Source: a virus. Taken from it: a stretch of 64,000 nucleotides of DNA. The position numbers and the translations under genes are program-made. Where the stretch lies: IMG/VR virus record IMGVR_UViG_3300005573_001011, positions 1-64,000 of that record. The stretch is one strand, 5' to 3'. The notes below the pieces were generated by a model, which did no database searches, had not been told where the DNA came from, and saw nothing but the letters and a program-made list of their open reading frames with translations. Positions within the stretch are counted from its first letter, which is position 1. Every line of letters begins with the position of its first letter. Below, in pieces: positions 12,693 through 62,960 of the stretch.

Positions 12693-13164
12693 ATCTGAGC
12701 TTCAAGCAGAGGAAATTAGCAAACAGATCGAACAACTAGATGACCAGATTGCTAGCTTGCAAGAAAAGATTAGTCACATTCGAACTTCAATGCTAGACGT
12801 AATAGCCGAAGACTTGAGAGTATACTTAGAAACTGTAAAGTTAGAGCAAGTTAGTGGTTACGAAGTAGTTTTTGGCCCCGAATACAACGTGACTAATGTT
12901 ACTGACTGGTATATAGACTCTACATCTGGTGAGATAATCTACGAGTACGATAGTACTGGGTGGGACTATGACCCTTATATAATAAAGTGGGTTGAGGACT
13001 GGAACTGGGGGTATGACTATCTTTACCATGAGCCATCTTCTAGTGGAACGTACGGTTTGCAGCCGAGGCTTAACCAATTACTTATAGCTAAGAATGTGCA
13101 GCTGGGTAATAAGCTGAAACTAGCCCAGTCAGAAGAACATATGCAAGATTATGCAACCAGGTGA
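12658..13164 (+). CDS. Hypothetical protein (coiled coil, acidic; possible virion protein)
   Basis: 168-aa ORF with N-terminal heptad pattern and DST motifs. Confidence 0.6.
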   Translation: MPDYVLQEMIDESELQAEEISKQIEQLDDQIASLQEKISHIRTSMLDVIAEDLRVYLETVKLEQVSGYEVVFGPEYNVTNVTDWYIDSTSGEIIYEYDSTGWDYDPYIIKWVEDWNWGYDYLYHEPSSSGTYGLQPRLNQLLIAKNVQLGNKLKLAQSEEHMQDYATR

Positions 13165-13657
13165 AGAACTATATCGTGAGTGGCTAAAAAAATGTACGAG
13201 CTACAAAGATGTAACTGACTGGTTAGCTCGCAACTTTATCTATAGCCAAGCAAGACTTTATTTATCCCAGCTTAGAGTTAAGCAAAAGTTGTTTCGTCTA
13301 ACTTCTTTCTATCCTTGGGAAACATTTATACTAAAAAGCGGGATTTGCTTTGACGCTTCTGTTTTTTGCAAGTACTCGCTTAACGAGATTGACAAAAGCT
13401 ACCAGGCAGAACTGATTTATATTCTTATCGAGAAAGACGTAATGTCTCACTACACTTGTGGTTTTTTCTTAGACTCTAAGCTATTTGTCGCGGACTATGG
13501 TACTACGTGCTTAACAACAAAAGGTACTAGTGGGCCGTTTTCTTCGCTAGACGAGTATGTAAACGATTTCTTTCTCAAAAGACACACAAGCTTCAATAAA
13601 GCCCAAGCATATCATTTTGGTTGGCCAGCTTGGAGAAAGTGTACGGAAATCTTTTGA
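13151..13657 (+). CDS. Transglutaminase-like Cys-His-Asp protein
   Basis: GICFDAS, SHYTC and VADYG give catalytic-triad spacing. Confidence 0.65.
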   Translation: MQPGEELYREWLKKCTSYKDVTDWLARNFIYSQARLYLSQLRVKQKLFRLTSFYPWETFILKSGICFDASVFCKYSLNEIDKSYQAELIYILIEKDVMSHYTCGFFLDSKLFVADYGTTCLTTKGTSGPFSSLDEYVNDFFLKRHTSFNKAQAYHFGWPAWRKCTEIF

Positions 13658-13676
13658 GAAGAAAAGGAGCATAGAT

Positions 13677-13985
13677 ATGCCAGCTGGAGCAGTTCTTTCT
13701 TCGTCAATAAGAGGTATTTGTTGTTGTCATTCTGACCCAGATTGCATAGAAGTCAATGGAACATTAATTAGTGGTTCTTCTGACGTGTCATTTGGTGGTT
13801 CCCCAGCAGCTAGAGTTGGCGATCTGGCGATCGGAGATTGTGGGCACTTTGGAATGGTTGGAAGCGGTTCAACTAGCGTTCTTTGCAACGGAATGCCCAC
13901 AGCGGTATCGGGTGTGTCTGTTATTTTGCCTTTGTGCATAACAGGTTTGGTCACTTCTGGCTGTGAATCCGTTTCAATATTGTAA
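13677..13985 (+). CDS. PAAR-repeat spike tip protein (T4 gp5.4-like)
   Basis: PAARVGD, CGH, GSTSVLCNGMPTA. Confidence 0.85.
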   Translation: MPAGAVLSSSIRGICCCHSDPDCIEVNGTLISGSSDVSFGGSPAARVGDLAIGDCGHFGMVGSGSTSVLCNGMPTAVSGVSVILPLCITGLVTSGCESVSIL

Positions 13986-51221: not shown

Positions 51222-53441
51222 ATGTCAATACAAACAACCACTTTGCGGGGGGAATCAGGGTACTCTGGTCTTTCTGGTTATTCTGGTACTGTTGGGCCTT
51301 ACGGTCTTAGTGGTTACTCTGGTATTTCCGGATTCTCTGGAATAAGTGGATTTTCAGGAACTTCAGGCTTAAGCGGGTATTCCGGTGTATCTGGTTATTC
51401 TGGTGTGGAAGGTGCTTACAGTGCTAGTGGGTACAGCGGAATCTCTGGTTACTCAGGAGCGACAGGTTCACAAGGAATCCAAGGACTTTCTGGGTACTCC
51501 GGTATTTCCGGTGCTTCCGGATACTCTGGCATTTCTGGTTATAGTGGCACTTACGGTCCGCCGGGTTCGTCTGGATATTCAGGAAGAAGCGGATATTCGG
51601 GAATCTCTGGATACTCAGGAATGGAAGGTGCTTATAGCGCATCTGGTTATTCCGGTATAAGTGGTTATTCTGGTCTAGAAGGACTTAGTGGATACTCAGG
51701 TATTTCCGGTTACTCTGGTCTTAGTGGTTATAGCGGAATAGAAGGATTATCTGGATACTCAGGAATGGAAGGTGCTTATAGCGCATCTGGTTATTCTGGA
51801 ATTTCTGGTTATTCTGGTCTAGAAGGCATTAGTGGGTACTCAGGATTAGAAGGACTTAGTGGCTATTCAGGAATTTCTGGATACTCAGGTCTAGAAGGAC
51901 TTAGCGGATATTCAGGATTAGAAGGTGCTTATAGCGCATCTGGTTATTCTGGAATTTCTGGTTATTCTGGTCTAGAAGGCATTAGTGGATACTCAGGTCT
52001 AGAAGGACTTAGTGGTTACTCTGGAATAAGTGGATATTCAGGAATTTCTGGTTACAGTGGTATAAGTGGCTACTCTGGCATTGAAGGAGCTCAAGGGTTA
52101 TCTGGCTATTCCGGTATAAGTGGTTATTCTGGTCTAGAAGGACTTAGTGGTTACTCCGGAATAAGCGGATATTCAGGAATTTCTGGTTACAGTGGTATAA
52201 GTGGTTATTCAGGAATTTCTGGATACTCAGGTCTAGAAGGACTTAGTGGTTACTCCGGAATAAGCGGATATTCAGGGACTAGTGGTTATTCTGGAATAAG
52301 CGGATACAGTGGTGCTCGTGGTCCTGATGGGCTTTCTGGGTACTCTGGAAGGAGCGGTTACTCAGGAATTTCTGGTTATTCTGGAATGGTTGGTTTCGAT
52401 GGTCTATCAGGATACTCTGGTGTTTCTGGATACTCTGGAATTGAAGGGTATAGTGGTTATTCAGGAATTTCTGGTTATAGTGGGGAAAGTGGAATAAGCG
52501 GTTACTCTGGAAAAACTGGTGCTTATAGTGCTTCTGGATACTCTGGTATTTCCGGTTACTCTGGTTTAGAAGGATTAAGTGGTTATAGTGGATATTCTGG
52601 TGCCCAAGGATATTCTGGTTATTCTGGTATGGAAGGTGCTTATAGTGCTAGTGGATATTCTGGAATAAGTGGATATTCAGGAATTTCAGGTCTATCTGGC
52701 TATTCTGGAATAAGTGGATACAGTGGTATCTCTGGATACTCTGGTATAAGTGGATACTCTGGAATACAGGGATATGTGGGGCAAGATGGAGCTTCTGGAT
52801 ACTCTGGTATTTCCGGTTACTCTGGTTTAGAAGGAGTCGAAGGTTTAAGTGGTTATAGCGGTATAAGTGGATACTCAGGCTTAGAAGGAGCTCAAGGATT
52901 ATCTGGTTACTCTGGAATTTCTGGTTACTCAGGGATAGAAGGTGCTTATAGTGCTAGTGGTTACTCTGGAATAAGTGGATATTCAGGAATTTCTGGTTAC
53001 AGTGGTATAAGTGGTTATTCAGGAATTTCTGGATACTCAGGTCTAGAAGGACTTAGCGGATACTCTGGGATTTCTGGTTATTCTGGTATAAGCGGCTATT
53101 CTGGATACCAGTCAAACGCACTAGACGGAACTGACTATTCTGCAGGAAATTCTGGGAGTAGTAAGACCATCGACTGGTCAAATGGTGCTACTCAATATAT
53201 GACTTTGACTGCTAACTGTACTATTACGTTGTCGAATGGTTCTAACGGTAAAGTGTACAGGCTATTTATATTGAACGACGAAACTGGTGGGTACACAGTT
53301 ACTTGGTCAACTACTATAAACTGGAGAGGAGGAACTACGCCAACTCAAACTACAACAGCTAGTCATGGAGACTGGTATACATTTGTATACTCCAATGGCA
53401 AATGGTTCGGCGACCAAGCTGCGGACTTTACTAATTCGTAA
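51222..53441 (+). CDS. Collagen-like Gly-X-Ser fibre protein with C-terminal beta domain
   Basis: About 620 aa with Gly at every third residue (GYS-GIS-GYS-GLE...). C-terminal TIDWSNG...TLTANCT...WRGG domain. Confidence 0.85.
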   Translation: MSIQTTTLRGESGYSGLSGYSGTVGPYGLSGYSGISGFSGISGFSGTSGLSGYSGVSGYSGVEGAYSASGYSGISGYSGATGSQGIQGLSGYSGISGASGYSGISGYSGTYGPPGSSGYSGRSGYSGISGYSGMEGAYSASGYSGISGYSGLEGLSGYSGISGYSGLSGYSGIEGLSGYSGMEGAYSASGYSGISGYSGLEGISGYSGLEGLSGYSGISGYSGLEGLSGYSGLEGAYSASGYSGISGYSGLEGISGYSGLEGLSGYSGISGYSGISGYSGISGYSGIEGAQGLSGYSGISGYSGLEGLSGYSGISGYSGISGYSGISGYSGISGYSGLEGLSGYSGISGYSGTSGYSGISGYSGARGPDGLSGYSGRSGYSGISGYSGMVGFDGLSGYSGVSGYSGIEGYSGYSGISGYSGESGISGYSGKTGAYSASGYSGISGYSGLEGLSGYSGYSGAQGYSGYSGMEGAYSASGYSGISGYSGISGLSGYSGISGYSGISGYSGISGYSGIQGYVGQDGASGYSGISGYSGLEGVEGLSGYSGISGYSGLEGAQGLSGYSGISGYSGIEGAYSASGYSGISGYSGISGYSGISGYSGISGYSGLEGLSGYSGISGYSGISGYSGYQSNALDGTDYSAGNSGSSKTIDWSNGATQYMTLTANCTITLSNGSNGKVYRLFILNDETGGYTVTWSTTINWRGGTTPTQTTTASHGDWYTFVYSNGKWFGDQAADFTNS

Positions 53442-53456
53442 AGGACTTCTTACGAT

Positions 53457-54671
53457 ATGGCGGTAGACACATATACCAAAGTTTTGTTGCATTTCGATGG
53501 TGAGGATGGTTCGCATAGTTTTACAGATGAATCTGGAAAGACTTGGAGCACTTATGGCTCTGGGTCTATTCCAGAACTTGATACTGACTACAAGAAATTT
53601 GGTTCTGCTTCAGGAAGGTTTTTTGGTGGGACTAATGGTATTATTTACACACCATGGCATACTGATTTTGAAAATATTGGACCATTTACCATCGATTTTT
53701 GGATAAGATTTAATTCACTTTCAGGGACTCAGAAAATATTTAATGTAGTGCAAAGTAGTACTTCTTTCTTCCAGTTCTATTGGGAGTCAAACACATTTAA
53801 GGTCTGGATTTACGATCATAGTGTCCAATTCTCGACTTCGACTTTGTCACTGTCTACAGGCCAGTGGTATCATGTGGCTTTAACTAGACTTAGTGGCACT
53901 TGGAGAATTTTTGTGGACGGTGAAATGAAAGCTGATTATACTGGCTATTCTGGAACACTGGCGAACTGGAACAGTAATGTCTGTATAGGCGGGCAGTACT
54001 ACAGTGGGCCTACCGAGTGCGTCAATGGCTGGATTGATGAGTTTCGATTTTCGAGGCTTTGTAGGTGGGTTGTGGGTGGATTTCCTTTACCAGATAGAGA
54101 TTACAGTAAGATATTTTACCCTTACGCTTACGCAAATAGAGATGGAGATTTTTTTACTGACTGTACTTACTTCAACAATTCTAATGAATATTTTGATATA
54201 GGTGATTCTTACAATTGTTTTATTGTATTTGATAATGTTGCTATACCAAAGAATGCCACATTAACGGAAGCATATATCGAACTGTGTGCGTGGTCTTATA
54301 GTGCAGATGACACCGTTAAAGTAAAAATACACTTTGCTGATGAAGACGATCCCAGCATACCAACAAGTTGTAGTGATATTAATAGTAGGTCTAGAACCAC
54401 AGGAGTAGAATGGAATAATGTTCCTCACACTGAAGAAAATGGGTGGATTACCACACCAGACATAAAAACAGCGTTGCAACCTGTTGTCAATAGAAGTGGT
54501 TGGTCTAGTGGAAACAAAGTAATGGCTATTATTCTAGACAATGGTGGTGATCCTGGAGCTTACAGAGATATTTGGGAAGCATATTCACTAAGATTTCCTG
54601 AGTTAAGAGTTGATTGGACAGAAGGAGGACCCTCACCCCAGCAAGGTTCGCTATTCACTTTCCAGTGGTAG
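53457..54671 (+). CDS. LamG/concanavalin-like lectin domain protein plus second beta domain
   Basis: LLHFDG, FTIDFW, WYHVALTR, IFVDG, GWIDEFRFS. Confidence 0.85.
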   Translation: MAVDTYTKVLLHFDGEDGSHSFTDESGKTWSTYGSGSIPELDTDYKKFGSASGRFFGGTNGIIYTPWHTDFENIGPFTIDFWIRFNSLSGTQKIFNVVQSSTSFFQFYWESNTFKVWIYDHSVQFSTSTLSLSTGQWYHVALTRLSGTWRIFVDGEMKADYTGYSGTLANWNSNVCIGGQYYSGPTECVNGWIDEFRFSRLCRWVVGGFPLPDRDYSKIFYPYAYANRDGDFFTDCTYFNNSNEYFDIGDSYNCFIVFDNVAIPKNATLTEAYIELCAWSYSADDTVKVKIHFADEDDPSIPTSCSDINSRSRTTGVEWNNVPHTEENGWITTPDIKTALQPVVNRSGWSSGNKVMAIILDNGGDPGAYRDIWEAYSLRFPELRVDWTEGGPSPQQGSLFTFQW

Positions 54672-54726: not shown

Positions 54727-55107
54727 ATGGAGATTTATGGTGCAGAAGTAAAAGCCACTTTAAAGATGGCTAAAGAAGCGGTTTTCGAACAAGAGTACGA
54801 CAACGGAAACAGTGGTGCAAACAAGACGATTGACTGGAGACATGGAAACAAGCAAAAACTTACTCTCACGGCAAACTGTACGTTAACTTTTACTAATCCG
54901 AGTGGTTGCACTGGTGGTCTTAGTCTCAGAATAGTCCAAGGAGGTGCTGGTAGCTATACTATTGCTTGGCCTAGTAATACTAGATGGCCGGGAGGTCAAG
55001 CCCCAACTTTGACTTCTGGTGTCGGAAGTGTAGATATTGTTGGGTTTTACTTCGATGGTAGTTACTATTATGGTATAGCAAGCACGAACTTCCTACCAGC
55101 AACATGA
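54727..55107 (+). CDS. Stand-alone copy of the fibre C-terminal domain
   Basis: NSGANKTIDWRHGNKQKLTLTANCTLTFTN aligns with NSGSSKTIDWSNGATQYMTLTANCTITLSN of 51222-53441. Confidence 0.75.
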   Translation: MEIYGAEVKATLKMAKEAVFEQEYDNGNSGANKTIDWRHGNKQKLTLTANCTLTFTNPSGCTGGLSLRIVQGGAGSYTIAWPSNTRWPGGQAPTLTSGVGSVDIVGFYFDGSYYYGIASTNFLPAT

Positions 55108-55120
55108 GGTGAGAATAGTT

Positions 55121-55702
55121 ATGGAAACTCAGTATAATCCTGAGTATCTTGAAAGTGTAAGAAAGTGGAAAACACCACAAGACGTACTTAAATATATCGA
55201 AACGTTTTCGTATGCTTCTGAGTTTTTGCCAGATACGAAAAGGAATCTACAACTCTATAAGATCTACCATCCTAAAATGCTTGATTTAGACACTCTATAT
55301 AAAACAAGACGTGGAACATGTACTAACGTTTATTACTTCTTTGTAAAGACAGTAAATACGATTGACCCTTCCTATGCTGCTTTTGCTATAACTATGACGT
55401 GGAGGGGTCCTTGGTCTGGTGTAAATAAGATTTGCTTCTGGTTTGAAGATTTTAAAGTCAAGAGTTTTCGTTGGACACCACAAGACGGTGGCAAACTCGT
55501 TTTAGATGAACCCTTCTCTTCTTTGGAGAGTGCTAGAGATTTCTACATAAGTATGGCAAAAGAGAGCTTAAAACCAAAAGAGATACCTATAAAATACGGT
55601 ATTTCGATTTTAGACATAAGAGTACTACGAGACCTAAAAATACAGCATGCATTAGAAGTTTTTGGTATAGACGATGGATATAGTATATACAGAAAGTTCT
55701 AA
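55121..55702 (+). CDS. Transglutaminase-like protein, paralog of 13151-13657
   Basis: RRGTCTN (catalytic Cys) and NTIDPSYAA versus NEIDKSYQA. The catalytic His is not obvious. Confidence 0.5.
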   Translation: METQYNPEYLESVRKWKTPQDVLKYIETFSYASEFLPDTKRNLQLYKIYHPKMLDLDTLYKTRRGTCTNVYYFFVKTVNTIDPSYAAFAITMTWRGPWSGVNKICFWFEDFKVKSFRWTPQDGGKLVLDEPFSSLESARDFYISMAKESLKPKEIPIKYGISILDIRVLRDLKIQHALEVFGIDDGYSIYRKF

Positions 55703-56543
55703 GTTTTATGTGGTTACCAATGAAGAAAGAGAAGAGGTAAAAAACTACCTGAAGAACAGTGGCAAGACCGTAGGCAGAGTTGGAATTAGCGGTACTGTTC
55801 ATGAAGGACATAAGTTTATTATAGAGACAGTTAAAAAATTGTACGATGTCGTTATTGTAGACTATGCTTCTTGGGTTCGTTTAGTTTCTTCTCGCTTGTT
55901 TTCCAGTTTCGCACTTCCAAGTGCAGTCACTCCTCCTGATAAGGTAGTGGAGAGCCTTAAAAGGAATAACGTTAGCTTTGACTACTTTTTTTGTACTAAT
56001 ATAACTGAAAAAATTTCGAGAGAAACTAGTTTCTTTAGAAGTTACGAAAGTGAGTTTCGTAACGTGTTAAAAAAGCTTGGATTTACGAGAACTAGCTTAG
56101 TAACACTATTGTGGCAAATTATAGTTGAAGAAGTAACCGGAGACACTGAAGAAGTTGGTCAGTCGTTTCTAGGTCCAAAAAATATTTTGATTGACCTTGT
56201 TTCGAAAGCTGTCGTTGGCCAGAATGCTAAGTATTTTCCAAACTATATTTGGAAATCCTATAGAGATCCGTCTACTTTCACTCTTGAGTCAAGAACATCT
56301 TCATCTATCTTGCTCGGGAAAGTTGCTAGAGAAGCCTATTCCGAACTACTTCGTGGTAAGACTGATGCTAAATATTTTGCTAACCTTGGGTCTGAGTTTT
56401 ATAGACAGGAACCAGGGTTTACTATAATAGACTACAAACGTCTGGAAAAAGTAGACCACGTAACAGATAATTGCGTTCTTGTTTTTTCTGAAGAAAACAA
56501 GTTCGACTACATTTTTATTAAAGACGGAATGATAATTTCCTGA
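55674..56543 (+). CDS. Divergent PanC-like (HIGH-superfamily) adenylate-forming enzyme
   Basis: GTVHEGH...YDVVIV (PanC GxLHEGH...DVVVV), FLGPKN (FGEKD), YRDPSTFTLESRT (REPDGLAxSSRN). Confidence 0.6.
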   Translation: MDIVYTESSKFYVVTNEEREEVKNYLKNSGKTVGRVGISGTVHEGHKFIIETVKKLYDVVIVDYASWVRLVSSRLFSSFALPSAVTPPDKVVESLKRNNVSFDYFFCTNITEKISRETSFFRSYESEFRNVLKKLGFTRTSLVTLLWQIIVEEVTGDTEEVGQSFLGPKNILIDLVSKAVVGQNAKYFPNYIWKSYRDPSTFTLESRTSSSILLGKVAREAYSELLRGKTDAKYFANLGSEFYRQEPGFTIIDYKRLEKVDHVTDNCVLVFSEENKFDYIFIKDGMIIS

Positions 56544-56559
56544 GTTATGGAGAAACTTC

Positions 56560-57102
56560 ATGCAAAAAACTGGGTGTACTTGCGACTCTACATGCTATAA
56601 TTTTTCCTGCTCTTGTAACACTACTTGCTATGGTTATCAAGCATGTCAGTACGGATGCGATAGTGGTTCGTACGGAGTGTCCTGTCCTTGTAATACTTCT
56701 TGCTATTCTTTTTCGTGTAGCTGTGATGCTAGGTGCCATAATTATGGTTGCACTTGCAATACGCTTTGCCATGGTTACCAAACATGTATGTACGGGTGCG
56801 ATAGTTCTTGCTATAATTATGGCAAAGCATGCGAATGTGATACGACGTGTTATGGATATGTCCCATGTTCGTGCGACAATACGCGTTACGGGTATACATG
56901 CACATGCGATGGCTGGTGCGACTCGTATACTCCTTGCTCATGCTACGGCCCAGGATATACTGTATGCACTTGCTATACGACATGTTATGGCTATTCCCCG
57001 TGCTCGTGCAATAATACGTGTTACGGATTTGTATGTACGTGCAATGCAACTTGTTACCAAGAAAGATTTGGTGCAGATGCTTTATCGTTCGAACTGTTCT
57101 AG
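56560..57102 (+). CDS. Cys/Tyr-rich repeat protein (CxCxxxCY)
   Basis: About 14 repeats and about 39 Cys in 180 aa. GGAG RBS. Confidence 0.75.
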   Translation: MQKTGCTCDSTCYNFSCSCNTTCYGYQACQYGCDSGSYGVSCPCNTSCYSFSCSCDARCHNYGCTCNTLCHGYQTCMYGCDSSCYNYGKACECDTTCYGYVPCSCDNTRYGYTCTCDGWCDSYTPCSCYGPGYTVCTCYTTCYGYSPCSCNNTCYGFVCTCNATCYQERFGADALSFELF

Positions 57103-57226
57103 CGGAAGGCAGATCTTAAAATGGGTCGAAGTACTTGCCAGTAATGCAGAAGTTCTAACGGAAGATCTTTGAAAATTTTAGTAGACGAATACACGTTGGA
57201 ATCTTAGTGATAAGGATTTATGGGCA

Positions 57227-57466
57227 AAAAAAAAGAGAAGCTTCTTTTAGCTTCTCTCTCTTGTCTCTACTCACGACGAACCCACAACACATTGTTAGAG
57301 TCGATCGTGAACTTCCTATCGCTAGTCTCGATGATAACCTGCCCAGGTAGACTGAGCATTCTTACGACGTTCTTAAATCTTCTCGTAACTCCCGTCACAT
57401 ACTCAATTATTACGTTCATTTTCTGCCTCCTTTATTTTATTTTTCTAAATAGAAATATATATAGCA
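57227..57466 (-). repeat. Left arm of ~240-bp inverted repeat (promoter-gene-terminator cassette)
   Basis: The reverse complement matches 62720-62960, with long identical runs. Confidence 0.9.
57267..57419 (-). CDS. Small 50-aa protein, copy 1
   Basis: MNVIIEYVTGVTRRFKNVVRMLSLPGQVIIETSDRKFTIDSNNVLWVRRE, with AAGGAGG RBS. Confidence 0.8.
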   Translation of the reverse strand: MNVIIEYVTGVTRRFKNVVRMLSLPGQVIIETSDRKFTIDSNNVLWVRRE

Positions 57467-57537
57467 AACTCATTTTTTATAAGAAGCTAAAATATTGCAA
57501 GTGAACAAATTGAAAAGAAGACGAAAAGGAGTGAAGT

Positions 57538-61642: not shown

Positions 61643-62707
61643 ATGCTGAGAGTAGCTTTCTATTCGAATAGAGTAAGATTCGACGGAGATTTCTTAGAAA
61701 AACGTGGTTTGGGAGGGTCTGAGAGTGCTCTTATAAACTTGACTACAGTATGGAAGCAAACGTTTCCAGAAGATTGTATCGTGGTATACAATTCACTTGA
61801 AAGAGAGACAAAAGAATTTAGTGGAGTTACTTACAAGAGTGTGCTAGACTTTAAGAGCGAGTGCAAAACATTCGATATAGATGTCTTCATAACTCTCAGA
61901 GACACTGAACCACTTTTCGAACCTTTTATTGACACAAAGTTGCTACTTTTTTGGAGTCAGGACGATAGTAACGAAGCTGGAATTAAGACGATAGCAACAA
62001 ACAAGTATTTGCAGGAGCGTTTGGACACGATCTTAGTAGTTAGTAACCATTCGTATAACGACATTAAACGTATTATTCCTACAACTCCCTTAGTTTTACT
62101 GAGAAATGGGTATAGGGAAGACTGGGCTGACGATAGCAACATGCGCAGAGATCCAATAGCTGCTTATAATTCCACACCGTTTCGTGGCTTAAGCATTTTA
62201 GCGGAAGTATGGTCAGAAATTTATTGGAAGTGCATGCAGTTAGGAGTTAACCCAGAACTCAGGGTTTTTACTGGCATGTCGCTTTATCAGCTTCCAGATA
62301 GGCCTCAAGAAGAGCAGATCTATAACACTCTTAAGCAATTGCCGAAAGTCACGTTTTGTGGTGCAATACCTCAGCGAAATCTTTACGAAGAACTGAAAAA
62401 AGTTAAAGTATTGCTTTACCCAAATACTTTTCTAGAAACAAGCTGTATGGCAGTGTTAGAAGCTTTAGCAAATGGAGTATGGGTTGTAACAAGTAATTTT
62501 GGTGCTTTGCCAGAGCAAGTCGTAGATAAACGAAATGGTTTCTTAATTAGTGGTGACCCTAACTCAAGTGAGTATAAAAAAGAGTTCGTAGAAAAAGCAG
62601 TATACAGTCTTGTGCATAAACTCGAACCAGATAGTGTTGGATTAATCTTTAGCTGGCAAGAACAAGTCTGTTTTCTTCGAGACTACATATGCAAAATGCT
62701 TTCTTAG
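61643..62707 (+). CDS. GT4-family glycosyltransferase
   Basis: GLGGSE, PFRGL, ETSCMAVLEA, GALPE. Confidence 0.9.
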   Translation: MLRVAFYSNRVRFDGDFLEKRGLGGSESALINLTTVWKQTFPEDCIVVYNSLERETKEFSGVTYKSVLDFKSECKTFDIDVFITLRDTEPLFEPFIDTKLLLFWSQDDSNEAGIKTIATNKYLQERLDTILVVSNHSYNDIKRIIPTTPLVLLRNGYREDWADDSNMRRDPIAAYNSTPFRGLSILAEVWSEIYWKCMQLGVNPELRVFTGMSLYQLPDRPQEEQIYNTLKQLPKVTFCGAIPQRNLYEELKKVKVLLYPNTFLETSCMAVLEALANGVWVVTSNFGALPEQVVDKRNGFLISGDPNSSEYKKEFVEKAVYSLVHKLEPDSVGLIFSWQEQVCFLRDYICKMLS

Positions 62708-62719
62708 AAAAAACTTGCA

Positions 62720-62960
62720 AGCTATATATATTTATTATTGAAAAAATAAAGAAAGGAGGCAGTAAAAATGAACGTGGTAATTGAATACATAACTGGTGTT
62801 AGTAGGAGATTTAGTAATGTCGTAAGAATGCTCAGTCTACCTGGGCAGGTTATCATCGAGACGAGTGATGGTAGAAAATTCACGATCGACTCTAACAATG
62901 TGTTGTGGGTTCGTCGTGGGTAGAGACAAGAGAGAGAAGCTAAAGAAGCTTCTCTTTTTT
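62720..62960 (+). repeat. Right arm of ~240-bp inverted repeat
   Basis: Contains CTATATATATTT, AAGGAGG, the gene and the hairpin agagaagct-aaaga-agcttctct-ttttt. Confidence 0.9.
62768..62923 (+). CDS. Small 51-aa protein, copy 2
   Basis: MNVVIEYITGVSRRFSNVVRMLSLPGQVIIETSDGRKFTIDSNNVLWVRRG. Confidence 0.8.
   Translation: MNVVIEYITGVSRRFSNVVRMLSLPGQVIIETSDGRKFTIDSNNVLWVRRG

What the first reader, a model, noticed from the sequence alone, without database searches (positions are those of the whole stretch)
55109..57102. Transglutaminase-like + PanC-like ligase + CxCxxxCY-repeat protein at the end of the fibre module
Seen: three tightly packed genes follow the collagen, LamG and tip-domain genes. 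The middle one keeps the HxGH, GxK and R..(S)SR motif layout of pantothenate synthetase but is very divergent, with no other pantothenate genes in the window. The last one is ~14 repeats of CxCxxxCY(G/N)Y with a short tail. Known: PanC adenylates a carboxylate and forms an amide bond, and transglutaminase folds cleave or cross-link peptides. Inference: this may be an undescribed phage post-translational modification system (RiPP-like maturation or amide cross-linking of a Cys-rich virion or metal-binding protein) rather than metabolism.
Basis: partly seen in the sequence, partly recalled or inferred. Interest (0 to 1): 0.8.

Follow-up and report, generated by a model that had tools for sequence, protein, structure and literature searches.

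The report
Phage fibre-module PanC-derived ligase set
At the end of a tail-fibre operon of a large uncultivated phage lie a degenerate transglutaminase-like protein, an enzyme descended from pantothenate synthetase that has lost its vitamin-substrate residues, and a cysteine-repeat fibre protein; they look like fibre-tailoring parts rather than metabolism, but they are not a fixed three-gene system.

Summary

- **ORF2** has the pantothenate synthetase (PanC) fold (AF2 pLDDT 90.7; every Foldseek row listed is PanC). It keeps the ATP motifs but lacks the pantoate-binding Asn/Gln. It belongs to a rare, metagenome-only family (28 proteins at E<=0.001).
- **ORF1** is homologous to two DUF553 transglutaminase-like paralogues in the same phage. 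It keeps the Cys but has lost the His and Asp.
- **ORF3** has 39 Cys in 180 aa and 14 units. The same repeat is embedded in 498-736-aa fibre-module proteins of other phages.

The trio is not conserved. A second DUF553 + PanC-like pair lies before a 3049-aa collagen-like fibre gene. None of 5 other records carrying the Cys pattern has either family. The repeat's recurrent neighbours are PapB-like radical SAM/SPASM enzymes.

Indirect links remain: one PanC-like relative overlaps such a maturase gene, and HxGH proteins sit in the radical SAM cassettes.

Verdict: fibre tailoring, not metabolism; the target is unknown. The scan's earlier notes had already flagged the second pair and the radical SAM enzyme.

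The parts
51222..53441 (+). Collagen-like (G-Y-S repeat) fibre protein, 739 aa, with a C-terminal tip domain
   Evidence: Pfam Collagen E 1.2e-89; PHROG tail fibre families, best E 1.4e-110
53457..54671 (+). LamG/concanavalin-like fibre-module protein, 404 aa
   Evidence: Pfam Laminin_G_3 E 3.9e-20; PHROG phrog_3545 (unknown function) E 3.4e-28 and baseplate-wedge/virion families from E 1.7e-20
54727..55107 (+). Small tail-fibre tip-domain protein, 126 aa
   Evidence: PHROG tail fibre protein phrog_9017 E 4.6e-12
55121..55702 (+). ORF1: degenerate DUF553/transglutaminase-like protein, 193 aa (alternative GTG start at 55109). Cys67 is kept; the catalytic His and Asp are replaced by Asn102 and Arg117.
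   Evidence: No Pfam hit. hhalign to the two in-genome DUF553 paralogues: probability 85%, E 6.3e-6, 135 columns. Alignment A5. ESM Atlas neighbours are transglutaminase-like/DUF553 (score 0.95, TM about 0.6). My own AF2 model was unusable (pLDDT 44).
55674..56543 (+). ORF2: PanC-fold HIGH-motif enzyme, 289 aa. ATP/adenylate residues are kept (H43, H46, K169, S206-R207); the pantoate-binding Asn/Gln positions are lost.
   Evidence: AF2 pLDDT 90.7. All Foldseek PDB rows listed (to rank 49) are pantothenate synthetases, best E 2.3e-10. Family profile against PanC 2ejc: E 1.6e-13. Conservation. Alignment with a Salmonella PanC.
56560..57102 (+). ORF3: leaderless Cys/Tyr repeat protein, 180 aa. 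It has 14 units of about 11-12 aa (CxC[N/D]xTCY(G)Y) and a 14-aa non-repeat tail.
   Evidence: Composition and shuffle test. Protein homologues at E 6e-12 to 9e-5. The same repeat is embedded in 498-736-aa fibre-module proteins of other phages.
57234..57257 (+). Hairpin (9-bp stem) after ORF3; a possible operon end
   Evidence: Terminator-like site. Such sites are not enriched over shuffles: 6 found, 4.8 expected.
13151..13657 (+). Third DUF553 transglutaminase-like paralogue (168 aa), with intact Cys/His/Asp positions. It overlaps the start of the PAAR spike-tip gene at 13617-13985.
   Evidence: Pfam DUF553, 29.9 bits against a cut-off of 20.5; PAAR_motif E 4.8e-10

Best explanation
**What it is.** The three genes close a late tail-fibre operon of a large uncultivated phage. 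I read them as fibre-tailoring parts, not metabolism, and not as one fixed system.

**ORF2.**
- Shown: it is a descendant of pantothenate synthetase that keeps the two-domain fold and the residues that bind ATP and form an acyl-adenylate.
- Shown: the residues that hold pantoate are gone.
- Inferred: it still adenylates a carboxylate and joins it to an amine, but on a different substrate.

**The ORF1 + ORF2 pair.**
- Shown: ORF2's family is rare and found only in metagenome and virus contigs. It occurs twice in this phage, each time directly after a DUF553 transglutaminase-like gene and beside a fibre gene.
- Inferred from shared contig lengths: related phages carry several paralogues.
- Inferred: the pair modifies a fibre-module component, either a protein carboxylate or amine or the fibre's glycan.
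- Inferred: the transglutaminase-like partner serves as acyl-transfer or substrate-holding subunit. In copy 1 (ORF1) it has lost His and Asp, so it is more probably a non-catalytic adaptor.

**ORF3.**
- Shown: it is a free-standing copy of a phage fibre repeat of about 11-12 residues per unit. In two other phages the repeat lies between an N-terminal and a C-terminal domain.
- Inferred: it forms a narrow rod.
- Shown by gene neighbourhood only: its recurrent enzymatic partners are PapB-like radical SAM/SPASM maturases.
- Inferred: these cross-link its cysteines. Whether ORF2 also acts on ORF3 is open.
For: **ORF2: fold and motifs.**
- AF2 pLDDT 90.7. All Foldseek rows listed, to rank 49, are PanC. 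The family profile matches PanC 2ejc at E 1.6e-13.
- HxGH, GPK and SR are conserved.
- PanC's VNPxQF aligns to ORF2 L70/S73, and KDxQQ aligns to K169-N170-I171-L172-I173. The roles of His44, His47, Asn69, Gln72, Lys160 and Gln164 come from the abstract of PMC5772511 as shown in the search listing.

**Second pair.** G000 66342-66881 passes Pfam DUF553 (21.5 > 20.5 bits). G000 66893-67777 passes Pantoate_ligase (40.5 > 20.7 bits, E 2.4e-10). The pair lies 14 nt before a 3049-aa G-Y-S fibre gene.

**Paralogue arrays.** P0038, P0012, P0018, P0019 and the ORF1-like P0009 all list a contig of 12,542 bp. P0011 and P0041 both list 4,879 bp. That each set shares one contig is inferred from the length alone.

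**L016.** The PanC-like P0028 overlaps the end of a radical SAM/SPASM gene. It is followed by a KAS III gene, a second radical SAM gene and tip-domain genes.

**ORF3 relatives.**
- The repeat is embedded in a 736-aa protein (L002) and a 498-aa protein (L012), and is free-standing in L003 and L004.
- A radical SAM enzyme of this phage (G000 78963-80417; best NCBIfam match PapB, E 1.6e-61) is 33% identical to the one 32 nt from the Cys-repeat gene in L004.
- It has relatives in 3 of 5 Cys-pattern records.
Against: - No substrate, product or interaction is shown; the mechanism rests on fold, motifs and gene neighbourhood.
- I could fetch context for only one PanC-like relative outside this genome (L016).
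- ORF1 has lost two of the three triad residues, so an acyl-transfer role for it is doubtful.
- Other phages with very similar collagen-like fibres (L003/G002, complete) have neither the PanC-like family nor DUF553. The pair is therefore not needed for such fibres.
- The region is rich in glycosyltransferases, so the target could be a sugar rather than a protein.
- Promoter- and terminator-like sites are not enriched over shuffles, so the operon boundaries are inferred from spacing only.
Confidence: 0.5

Rival explanations
1. One reading: the three genes form a dedicated modification system. The PanC-like ligase, helped by the transglutaminase-like protein, adenylates a carboxylate of the Cys-repeat protein (its C-terminus or an Asp side chain). 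It then forms an amide or isopeptide bond, alongside radical SAM cross-linking.
For: - The genes are tightly packed in one operon.
- In L016 a PanC-like gene overlaps the end of a radical SAM/SPASM gene. That gene's relatives (E about 1e-9 to 1e-12) adjoin Cys-repeat genes in L002, L003 and L012.
- In G001 and G005 a ~270-aa protein with an S-G-L-H-x-G-H motif lies between the two radical SAM genes, just upstream of the Cys-repeat fibre gene. It aligns weakly with the PanC-like family: hhalign probability 45%, E 2.2e-4 over 40 columns. A relaxed alignment is colinear and puts GPE opposite GPK.
Against: - 0 of 5 other records with the Cys pattern have a PanC-like family member at E <= 0.01. 0 of the 4 of them searched have DUF553. 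Two of these records are complete.
- L016's 51-kb record has no CxCxxxC[YH] pattern.
- The second pair in this phage sits next to a collagen-like fibre gene instead.
- ORF1 lacks His and Asp.
- The C-terminal tail of ORF3 is not conserved among its relatives.
- The HxGH protein's kinship to PanC is unproven.
Confidence: 0.25
2. Glycan tailoring: the PanC-like enzyme ligates an acid and an amine on a sugar that the phage's many glycosyltransferases attach to the Ser-rich fibres. An example would be N-acylation of an amino sugar or amidation of a uronic acid.
For: - Glycosyltransferase genes lie close by. A 1055-aa GT4-GT2-methyltransferase fusion, a GT2 and a GT1-type gene follow ORF3 directly, and GT9, GT1-type and GT-D genes lie at 9.7-16 kb.
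- PanC's natural substrate is a hydroxy acid, not a protein (established knowledge of the family).
- L004 also has a 416-aa ORF between its fibre gene and the tip-like gene before its Cys-repeat gene. I read it by eye as a GT2-methyltransferase fusion and did not scan it.
Against: - Both copies are paired with a transglutaminase-like (protein-directed) fold rather than with sugar-nucleotide enzymes.
- In L016 the neighbours are radical SAM/SPASM enzymes whose NCBIfam matches include peptide maturases, plus KAS III.
- No sugar-activating gene was identified next to either copy, though I did not search for them systematically.
Confidence: 0.15
3. ORF2 is a bona fide, merely fast-evolving, pantothenate synthetase: an auxiliary metabolic gene that boosts host CoA synthesis.
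For: - Full-length PanC fold and ATP motifs.
- Copy 2 passes the Pfam Pantoate_ligase threshold.
Against: - The Asn and Gln that hold pantoate are replaced in ORF2. Both Gln are replaced in copy 2.
- TIGR00018 panC scores 17.1 bits against a cut-off of 212.75.
- There are two divergent copies, each after a transglutaminase-like gene and beside fibre genes.
- Other contigs appear to carry several paralogues.
- No panB or panD was found in the 119 kb held.
Confidence: 0.03
4. ORF3 is a metallothionein-like metal-binding protein, or a metal-stapled repeat, not an enzymatically cross-linked rod.
For: 21.7% Cys, with CxC and CxxxC spacing.
Against: - 12.8% Tyr and a strict 11-12-residue period. That classical metallothioneins lack aromatic residues is recalled, not tested.
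- In L002 and L012 the repeat lies between an N-terminal and a C-terminal domain.
- It is linked with radical SAM/SPASM maturases in 4 of 4 other phages that have multi-repeat proteins.
- Metal binding and cross-linking are not mutually exclusive.
Confidence: 0.08

Closest known systems
Pantothenate synthetase PanC (pantoate--beta-alanine ligase; Pfam PF02569, TIGR00018)
   Same: - Two-domain fold over the full length.
- HxGH motif, the Lys of GxK(D), and the Ser-Arg of the SSR(N) loop.
- Similar length, about 280-290 aa.
   Different: - The pantoate-binding Asn and both Gln are replaced.
- A conserved N266-C267 motif in the C-terminal domain (C in 27/28 members) characterises the new family. 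It is absent from the one PanC that I aligned.
- ORF2 scores below the curated thresholds.
- The family occurs as multiple paralogues next to fibre, transglutaminase-like and radical SAM genes, with no panB/panD.
Lasso-peptide B/C logic: a transglutaminase-like protease (McjB) plus an ATP-dependent adenylating lactam synthetase
   Same: A transglutaminase-superfamily protein is paired with an enzyme that activates a carboxylate with ATP to make an amide. McjB as a member of Pfam Transglut_core3 comes from passages of PMC10318531. The rest of the lasso mechanism is recalled.
   Different: - The ligase here has the PanC/HIGH fold, not the asparagine-synthetase fold.
- ORF1 lacks His and Asp.
- There is no leader-bearing precursor.
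- The pair also occurs without any small Cys-rich gene nearby.
PapB/PapA (freyrasin) and other radical SAM/SPASM Cys-peptide maturation systems (SCIFF/CteB, CXXX-repeat, QhpD)
   Same: - A Cys-rich repeat substrate candidate.
- This phage's 484-aa enzyme scores best against the NCBIfam PapB family (E 1.6e-61) and against PDB 5wgg (E 1.7e-24).
- Such enzymes sit 32 nt to about 4.5 kb from Cys-repeat genes in four other phages.
   Different: - The enzyme scores below the PapB equivalog cut-off (208 bits against 340).
- The putative substrate is a leaderless structural repeat of 180-736 aa, not a short secreted peptide.
- In this phage the enzyme lies about 22 kb from ORF3.
- No cross-link chemistry is shown.
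DUF553 / transglutaminase-like superfamily (Pfam PF04473)
   Same: ORF1 aligns colinearly with two DUF553-positive paralogues, and the G-x-C nucleophile motif is conserved.
   Different: - ORF1 gets no Pfam hit.
- His is replaced by Asn102 and Asp by Arg117, in ORF1 and in its only non-self homologue P0009.

Membership tests
Pantothenate synthetase (PanC) | Two-domain PanC fold (Rossmann-type HIGH domain plus C-terminal lid) | tested here: met
   AF2 pLDDT 90.7. All Foldseek PDB rows listed to rank 49 are PanC, with TM 0.45-0.65.
Pantothenate synthetase (PanC) | ATP/adenylate residues: HxGH, the Lys of GxKD, the SSR loop | tested here: met
   H43 25/28, H46 26/28, K169 25/28, S206 18/28, R207 24/28. 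These align to the PanC motifs. Asp of KD is Asn170 in ORF2.
Pantothenate synthetase (PanC) | Pantoate-binding Asn69, Gln72 and Gln164 (M. tuberculosis numbering; abstract of PMC5772511) | tested here: not met
   In the alignment with a Salmonella PanC these positions are L70, S73 and I173 in ORF2. In copy 2 the Asn is kept and both Gln are replaced.
Pantothenate synthetase (PanC) | Curated family score thresholds | tested here: not met
   ORF2: Pfam 19.2 < 20.7 bits; TIGR00018 17.1 < 212.75. Copy 2 passes Pfam (40.5 bits).
Pantothenate synthetase (PanC) | Pathway context (panB, panD) | tested here: not met
   No PF02548 or PF02261 match in the 119-kb record, which is only 38% complete by CheckV.
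Transglutaminase-like / DUF553 | Profile match above threshold | tested here: not met
   ORF1 gets no Pfam hit at E <= 1. The paralogues at G000 66342-66881 and window 13151-13657 pass. ORF1 is linked to them by hhalign, probability 85%.
Transglutaminase-like / DUF553 | Cys-His-Asp catalytic triad | tested here: not met
   Cys67 is kept. His is Asn102 and Asp is Arg117 in ORF1 and P0009. There is no invariant His in A4.
Transglutaminase-like / DUF553 | Papain/transglutaminase fold | tested here: inconclusive
   My own AF2 model was unusable (pLDDT 44). The ESM Atlas's own model (pTM 0.79) has transglutaminase-like/DUF553 clusters as its nearest neighbours at TM about 0.6.
RiPP precursor of the ranthipeptide/SCIFF type | Leader peptide ahead of a Cys-rich core | tested here: not met
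   The repeats start at residue 6 of ORF3, and at residues 4-7 in the L003 and L004 homologues.
RiPP precursor of the ranthipeptide/SCIFF type | Adjacent radical SAM/SPASM maturase | tested here: inconclusive
   Not adjacent here: the nearest lies about 22 kb away, at G000 78963-80417. Adjacent in L004 (32 nt) and one gene away in L003. Within about 4-4.5 kb in G001 and G005.
RiPP precursor of the ranthipeptide/SCIFF type | Thioether cross-links on Cys | not testable with these tools
   Needs mass spectrometry or NMR of the protein.
Metallothionein | Cys-rich with CxC/CxxC motifs and few or no aromatic residues (criterion recalled) | tested here: not met
   21.7% Cys, but also 12.8% Tyr plus Phe, His and Trp.

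The most novel reading that the evidence does not exclude
Large phages carry a modular enzyme kit for covalently finishing their fibres. It would consist of PanC-derived adenylating ligases (in several paralogues), transglutaminase-like partners and two kinds of radical SAM/SPASM maturases. In this reading the PanC-derived enzymes are the first members of the PanC fold to act on proteins. They would form amide or isopeptide bonds on the Cys-repeat rods or collagen-like fibres, while the radical SAM enzymes staple the cysteines.
Probability: 0.25. Interest if true: 0.85.

Novelty: new variant of a known kind. Interest (0 to 1): 0.6.

Why it matters
**PanC repurposed.** To my knowledge (recalled) PanC is a single-function enzyme family. 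I found no paper describing a repurposed PanC paralogue. The searches were:
- 'PanC-like', 'pantothenate synthetase-like', 'PanC homolog', 'PanC paralog';
- 'pantothenate synthetase' with 'jumbo phage', 0 papers;
- 'pantothenate synthetase', 'transglutaminase-like', 'amidoligase'.

A phage-borne PanC offshoot that has swapped its substrate pocket, multiplied into paralogues and settled among fibre genes would be a new enzyme activity worth assaying.

**Fibre chemistry.** Together with the radical SAM/SPASM-linked Cys repeat, it suggests that some large phages chemically finish their fibres after translation. That bears on fibre stability, on host recognition, and on the design of robust protein rods.

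**Limit.** The evidence is fold, motifs and gene neighbourhood only. The target and the chemistry are open.

Tried and rejected
**Comparative context that led nowhere.**
I could not fetch the contigs of 26 of the 28 PanC-like proteins (all but P0028; P0001 is this phage's own near-copy) or of P0009.
- The search for related loci found no relatives in viral contigs for ORF2, alignment A2, P0009, ORF3, copy 2 or P0020. Only P0028 gave a locus.
- Both metagenome scans (A3; P0009) found nothing. So did one genome-contig scan (P0011).
- The second genome-contig scan, with the Cys-repeat DNA pattern, gave 7 single hits. None is a multi-repeat protein.
- GenBank phages: no DNA match. No tblastn match for ORF2, ORF3, P0035 or P0029. 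Copy 2 matched a bacterial panC (H1) and two unannotated Listeria phage records (H2, H3; 26% identity) that I did not examine.

**Other dead ends.**
- The ESM Atlas gave nothing usable for ORF3.
- The AF2 model of ORF1 was unusable, so I ran no fold search on it.
- Promoter and terminator scans were no better than shuffles.
- PHROG, NCBIfam and Pfam gave nothing for ORF1, for ORF3, or for protein X of L002/L003. The other Cys-repeat proteins had no hit or only weak ones.

**Rejected readings.**
- Metabolic PanC: the substrate residues are lost.
- ORF3 in another reading frame: long ORFs in other frames at 56545-57172 arise from the repeat, and protein homologues support the Cys frame.
- Similarity of L003's 248-aa protein to ORF1 or ORF2: none.

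**Literature.** Supplementary files of papers were not consulted. Of PMC10318531 I saw passages only. Of PMC5772511 I saw only the abstract start in the search listing. All other papers were seen as listings only. Iyer et al. 2009 on amidoligases appears only as an entry in the reference list of PMC10318531; its content is recalled.


Full report
**Where the window lies.** The window is the first 64 kb of a 119-kb IMG/VR virus record. CheckV estimates it at 38% complete, so the phage is probably large.

- The ORF listing gives ORFs at 55109..55702, 55674..56543 and 56560..57102 on the + strand. For ORF1 the ATG at 55121 fits the near-identical database protein P0008.
- ORF1 and ORF2 overlap by 29 nt. 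ORF3 follows ORF2 after 16 nt, with GGAG ahead of its ATG.
- Upstream are a collagen-like G-Y-S fibre protein (Pfam Collagen, E 1.2e-89), a LamG protein (E 3.9e-20) and a 126-aa tip domain (PHROG tail fibre, E 4.6e-12).
- A 9-bp-stem hairpin follows ORF3 at 57234-57257. Terminator- and promoter-like sites in the region are no more frequent than in shuffles.

**ORF2 is a true PanC homologue.**
- Alone it barely touches Pfam Pantoate_ligase (19.2 bits against 20.7, residues 19-62) and TIGR00018 (17.1 against 212.75).
- An exhaustive HMMER search of 1.84 billion representatives found 28 proteins at E <= 0.001, nearly all 269-298 aa.
- I aligned ORF2 with 27 of these 28 proteins (P0034, a 115-aa fragment, was left out), giving 28 rows. 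The profile matches PanC structures over almost the full length (2ejc, E 1.6e-13, positions 1-250). 24 of the 28 rows hit Pantoate_ligase at E <= 0.1.
- AlphaFold2 with that alignment gives pLDDT 90.7 and pTM 0.89. Every Foldseek PDB row listed, to rank 49, is a pantothenate synthetase (best E 2.3e-10, TM 0.45-0.65).

**But it is not a pantothenate synthetase in the functional sense.**
- Conserved in the family are H43 (25/28), G45 and H46 (26/28), D58, D103, G167, K169 (25/28), R207 (24/28), D253 and a family-specific N266-C267 (C in 27/28).
- I aligned the family with copy 2 and a Salmonella PanC taken from an annotated record. PanC's VNPxQF stretch falls on ORF2 R69-L70-V71-S72-S73-R74. KDxQQ falls on K169-N170-I171-L172-I173. 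RxxDGLAxSSRN falls on R197...S206-R207.
- The abstract of PMC5772511, seen in the listing, names His44, His47, Asn69, Gln72, Lys160 and Gln164 as the conserved residues for substrate binding and pantoyl-adenylate formation. ORF2 keeps the two His and the Lys. It has Leu, Ser and Ile at the Asn and Gln positions.
- No panB or panD was found in the 119 kb held.

**ORF1 is a degenerate transglutaminase-like protein.**
- It has no Pfam, PHROG or NCBIfam hit. It has only one non-self homologue, P0009 (56% identity).
- My AF2 model was unusable (pLDDT 44).
- The ESM Atlas holds the sequence. Its nearest clusters, by features (0.95) and by its own model (TM about 0.6), are transglutaminase-like/DUF553. 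That is a lead only.
- The same phage has two proteins that pass the Pfam DUF553 threshold: G000 66342-66881 (21.5 bits) and window 13151-13657 (29.9 bits).
- A profile of ORF1 and its two database relatives (P0008, near-identical; P0009) aligns with those two proteins at hhalign probability 85%, E 6.3e-6, over 135 columns.
- The G-x-C motif is invariant. Where the paralogues have His and Asp, ORF1 and P0009 have Asn102 and Arg117. No His is invariant between ORF1 and P0009.

**ORF3 is a protein-level repeat.**
- It has 39 Cys and 23 Tyr in 180 residues, in 14 units of 10-14 residues.
- C.C...C[YH] occurs 9 times, against 0.23 expected. There is no DNA tandem repeat.
- It has five database homologues (E 6e-12 to 9e-5). 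P0003 and P0005-P0007 carry an extra N-terminal domain; P0004 is repeat-only.
- A degenerate DNA pattern for CxC[N/D]xTCYGY found 8 viral loci. Four hold multi-repeat proteins:
  - L002: 736 aa, 22 motifs, lying between an N-terminal and a C-terminal domain.
  - L006/L012: 498 aa.
  - L003: 204 aa, free-standing.
  - L004: 185 aa, free-standing.
- Of the other four loci, three hold a single motif in a short ORF and one holds none that I could place.
- The same pattern in 185,579 prokaryote genomes gave 7 single hits and no repeat protein.

**What travels with the Cys repeat.**
- L003 repeats the window's gene order: G-Y-S collagen fibre, a 193-aa protein, a tip domain, then the Cys-repeat gene. 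It is followed by a 248-aa protein X and a radical SAM/SPASM enzyme, which I call type B (NCBIfam PapB E 5.5e-13 and SPASM E 1.4e-12).
- In L004 the Cys-repeat gene is followed, after 32 nt, by a radical SAM enzyme that I call type A.
- The window's own phage has a 484-aa type A enzyme at G000 78963-80417.
  - It is 33% identical to the L004 enzyme (E 5e-44).
  - Its best NCBIfam match is the PapB ranthipeptide maturase family (E 1.6e-61, below the equivalog cut-off). Its best PDB match is 5wgg (E 1.7e-24).
  - Its C-terminal part carries CICNNMCY and CQCYNTNY.
- Type A relatives occur in 3 of 5 records with the pattern (G001, G003, G005). Type B occurs in G001, G002 and G005.
- In G001 and G005 the order is type A, a ~270-aa protein with an S-G-L-H-x-G-H motif, (a 211-aa gene in G005), X, type B, two C1q-like fibre genes, then the Cys-repeat fibre gene.
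- So all 4 other phages with multi-repeat proteins have at least one such maturase. The distance ranges from 32 nt (L004) to about 4.5 kb (type A in G005).

**What travels with the PanC-like family.**
- A profile search of the whole own genome found a second member at G000 66893-67777. It scores E 3e-23 against the family profile, passes Pfam Pantoate_ligase at 40.5 bits, and matches PanC 3mue at E 1.6e-8.
- That copy lies directly after the DUF553 gene at 66342-66881 and 14 nt before a 3049-aa G-Y-S fibre gene. I found this, and the radical SAM enzyme, before opening the scan's earlier notes, which say the same.
- Cluster look-ups show that P0038, P0012, P0018, P0019 (all PanC-like) and P0009 (ORF1-like) each list a contig of 12,542 bp. 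P0011 and P0041 both list 4,879 bp. That these are the same contigs is inferred from the lengths only.
- L016 is the only other locus I could fetch. There the PanC-like P0028 overlaps the end of a type B-like radical SAM/SPASM gene (E about 1e-9 to 1e-12 to L003's). It is followed by two 142-aa genes, a KAS III gene (NCBIfam PRK09258, 298 bits against 285), a second radical SAM gene and tip-domain genes.
- L016's 51-kb record has no CxCxxxC[YH] pattern and no DUF553.
- Conversely, 0 of 5 Cys-pattern records have a PanC-like family member at E <= 0.01. 0 of the 4 searched have DUF553. Two of these records are complete.
- The HxGH proteins of G001 and G005 resemble the family only weakly: hhalign probability 45%, E 2.2e-4, 40 columns. 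A relaxed alignment is colinear with GPE opposite GPK. PanC chains appear among non-significant PDB hits. I could not fold these proteins.

**Reading.**
- The trio is not a conserved unit. The recurring unit for ORF1/ORF2 is the pair DUF553-like plus PanC-like beside a fibre gene. The recurring partners of the Cys repeat are radical SAM/SPASM maturases.
- The two sets meet in L016 and, perhaps, in the HxGH proteins.
- I therefore favour (0.5) a fibre-tailoring role for a PanC-derived adenylating ligase of unknown target, with ORF1 as a probably non-catalytic partner.
Glycan tailoring is at about 0.15, and true pantothenate synthesis at about 0.03.

**Novelty.**
- No GenBank phage holds a member of the PanC-like family. 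One search gave a bacterial panC and two unannotated Listeria phage records at 26% identity, which I did not examine.
- Literature searches for repurposed PanC paralogues, for pantothenate synthetase in jumbo phages, and for PanC with transglutaminase-like or amidoligase partners gave nothing relevant.
- The ten papers listed for ranthipeptide with phage tail-fibre terms hold no occurrence of 'ranthipeptide'.
- The scan's own earlier follow-up on the neighbouring stretch had already described the radical SAM enzyme and its Cys-motif tail.

Noticed in passing
window 57246-57485 and 62701-62944: Inverted repeats of about 240 bp (arms 73 nt at 96%, 105 nt at 85% and 50 nt at 76% complementary) flank the three-gene glycosyltransferase block. 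Each carries a 50/51-aa ORF that points outward.
   Followed up: partly
window 13151-13657 and 13617-13985: A third DUF553 transglutaminase-like paralogue, with Cys/His/Asp positions intact, overlaps the start of a PAAR spike-tip gene. It lies among glycosyltransferase genes.
   Followed up: partly
G000 78963-80417 (L010 1462-2916): A PapB-like radical SAM/SPASM enzyme whose C-terminal part carries CICNNMCY and CQCYNTNY, like the ORF3 repeat. It is preceded by a trypsin-like protease gene. The type A relatives in G001 and G005 end with a similar SCDCYNANYTG motif.
   Followed up: partly
L002 5051-8833; L012 11838-16197 (minus strand); L003 1154-2901 (minus strand): A conserved cassette lies directly upstream of fibre genes that include a Cys-repeat fibre gene. 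Its order is radical SAM type A, an HxGH-motif protein of about 270 aa, protein X (233-248 aa, no family hit) and radical SAM type B. L003 has only X and type B.
   Followed up: partly
L016 9073-14084: A fibre-module enzyme cluster: radical SAM/SPASM, PanC-like, two 142-aa genes, KAS III (3-oxoacyl-ACP synthase III, above the NCBIfam cut-off) and a second radical SAM gene. Tip-domain genes follow.
   Followed up: partly
proteins P0009, P0012, P0018, P0019, P0038: One ORF1-like and four PanC-like proteins all list a JGI contig of 12,542 bp. This suggests an array of paralogues on one contig that I could not fetch.
   Followed up: no
G000 67792-76941 (L013 3792-12941): A 3049-aa fibre protein made of several G-Y-S collagen-like blocks separated by globular domains, with a long GIGTT-repeat region. 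It lies directly after the second PanC-like gene.
   Followed up: no
window 56545-57172, other frames: Long ORFs of 78-180 aa in other frames and on the minus strand overlap ORF3. They appear to be by-products of the repeat; protein homologues support only the Cys frame.
   Followed up: partly
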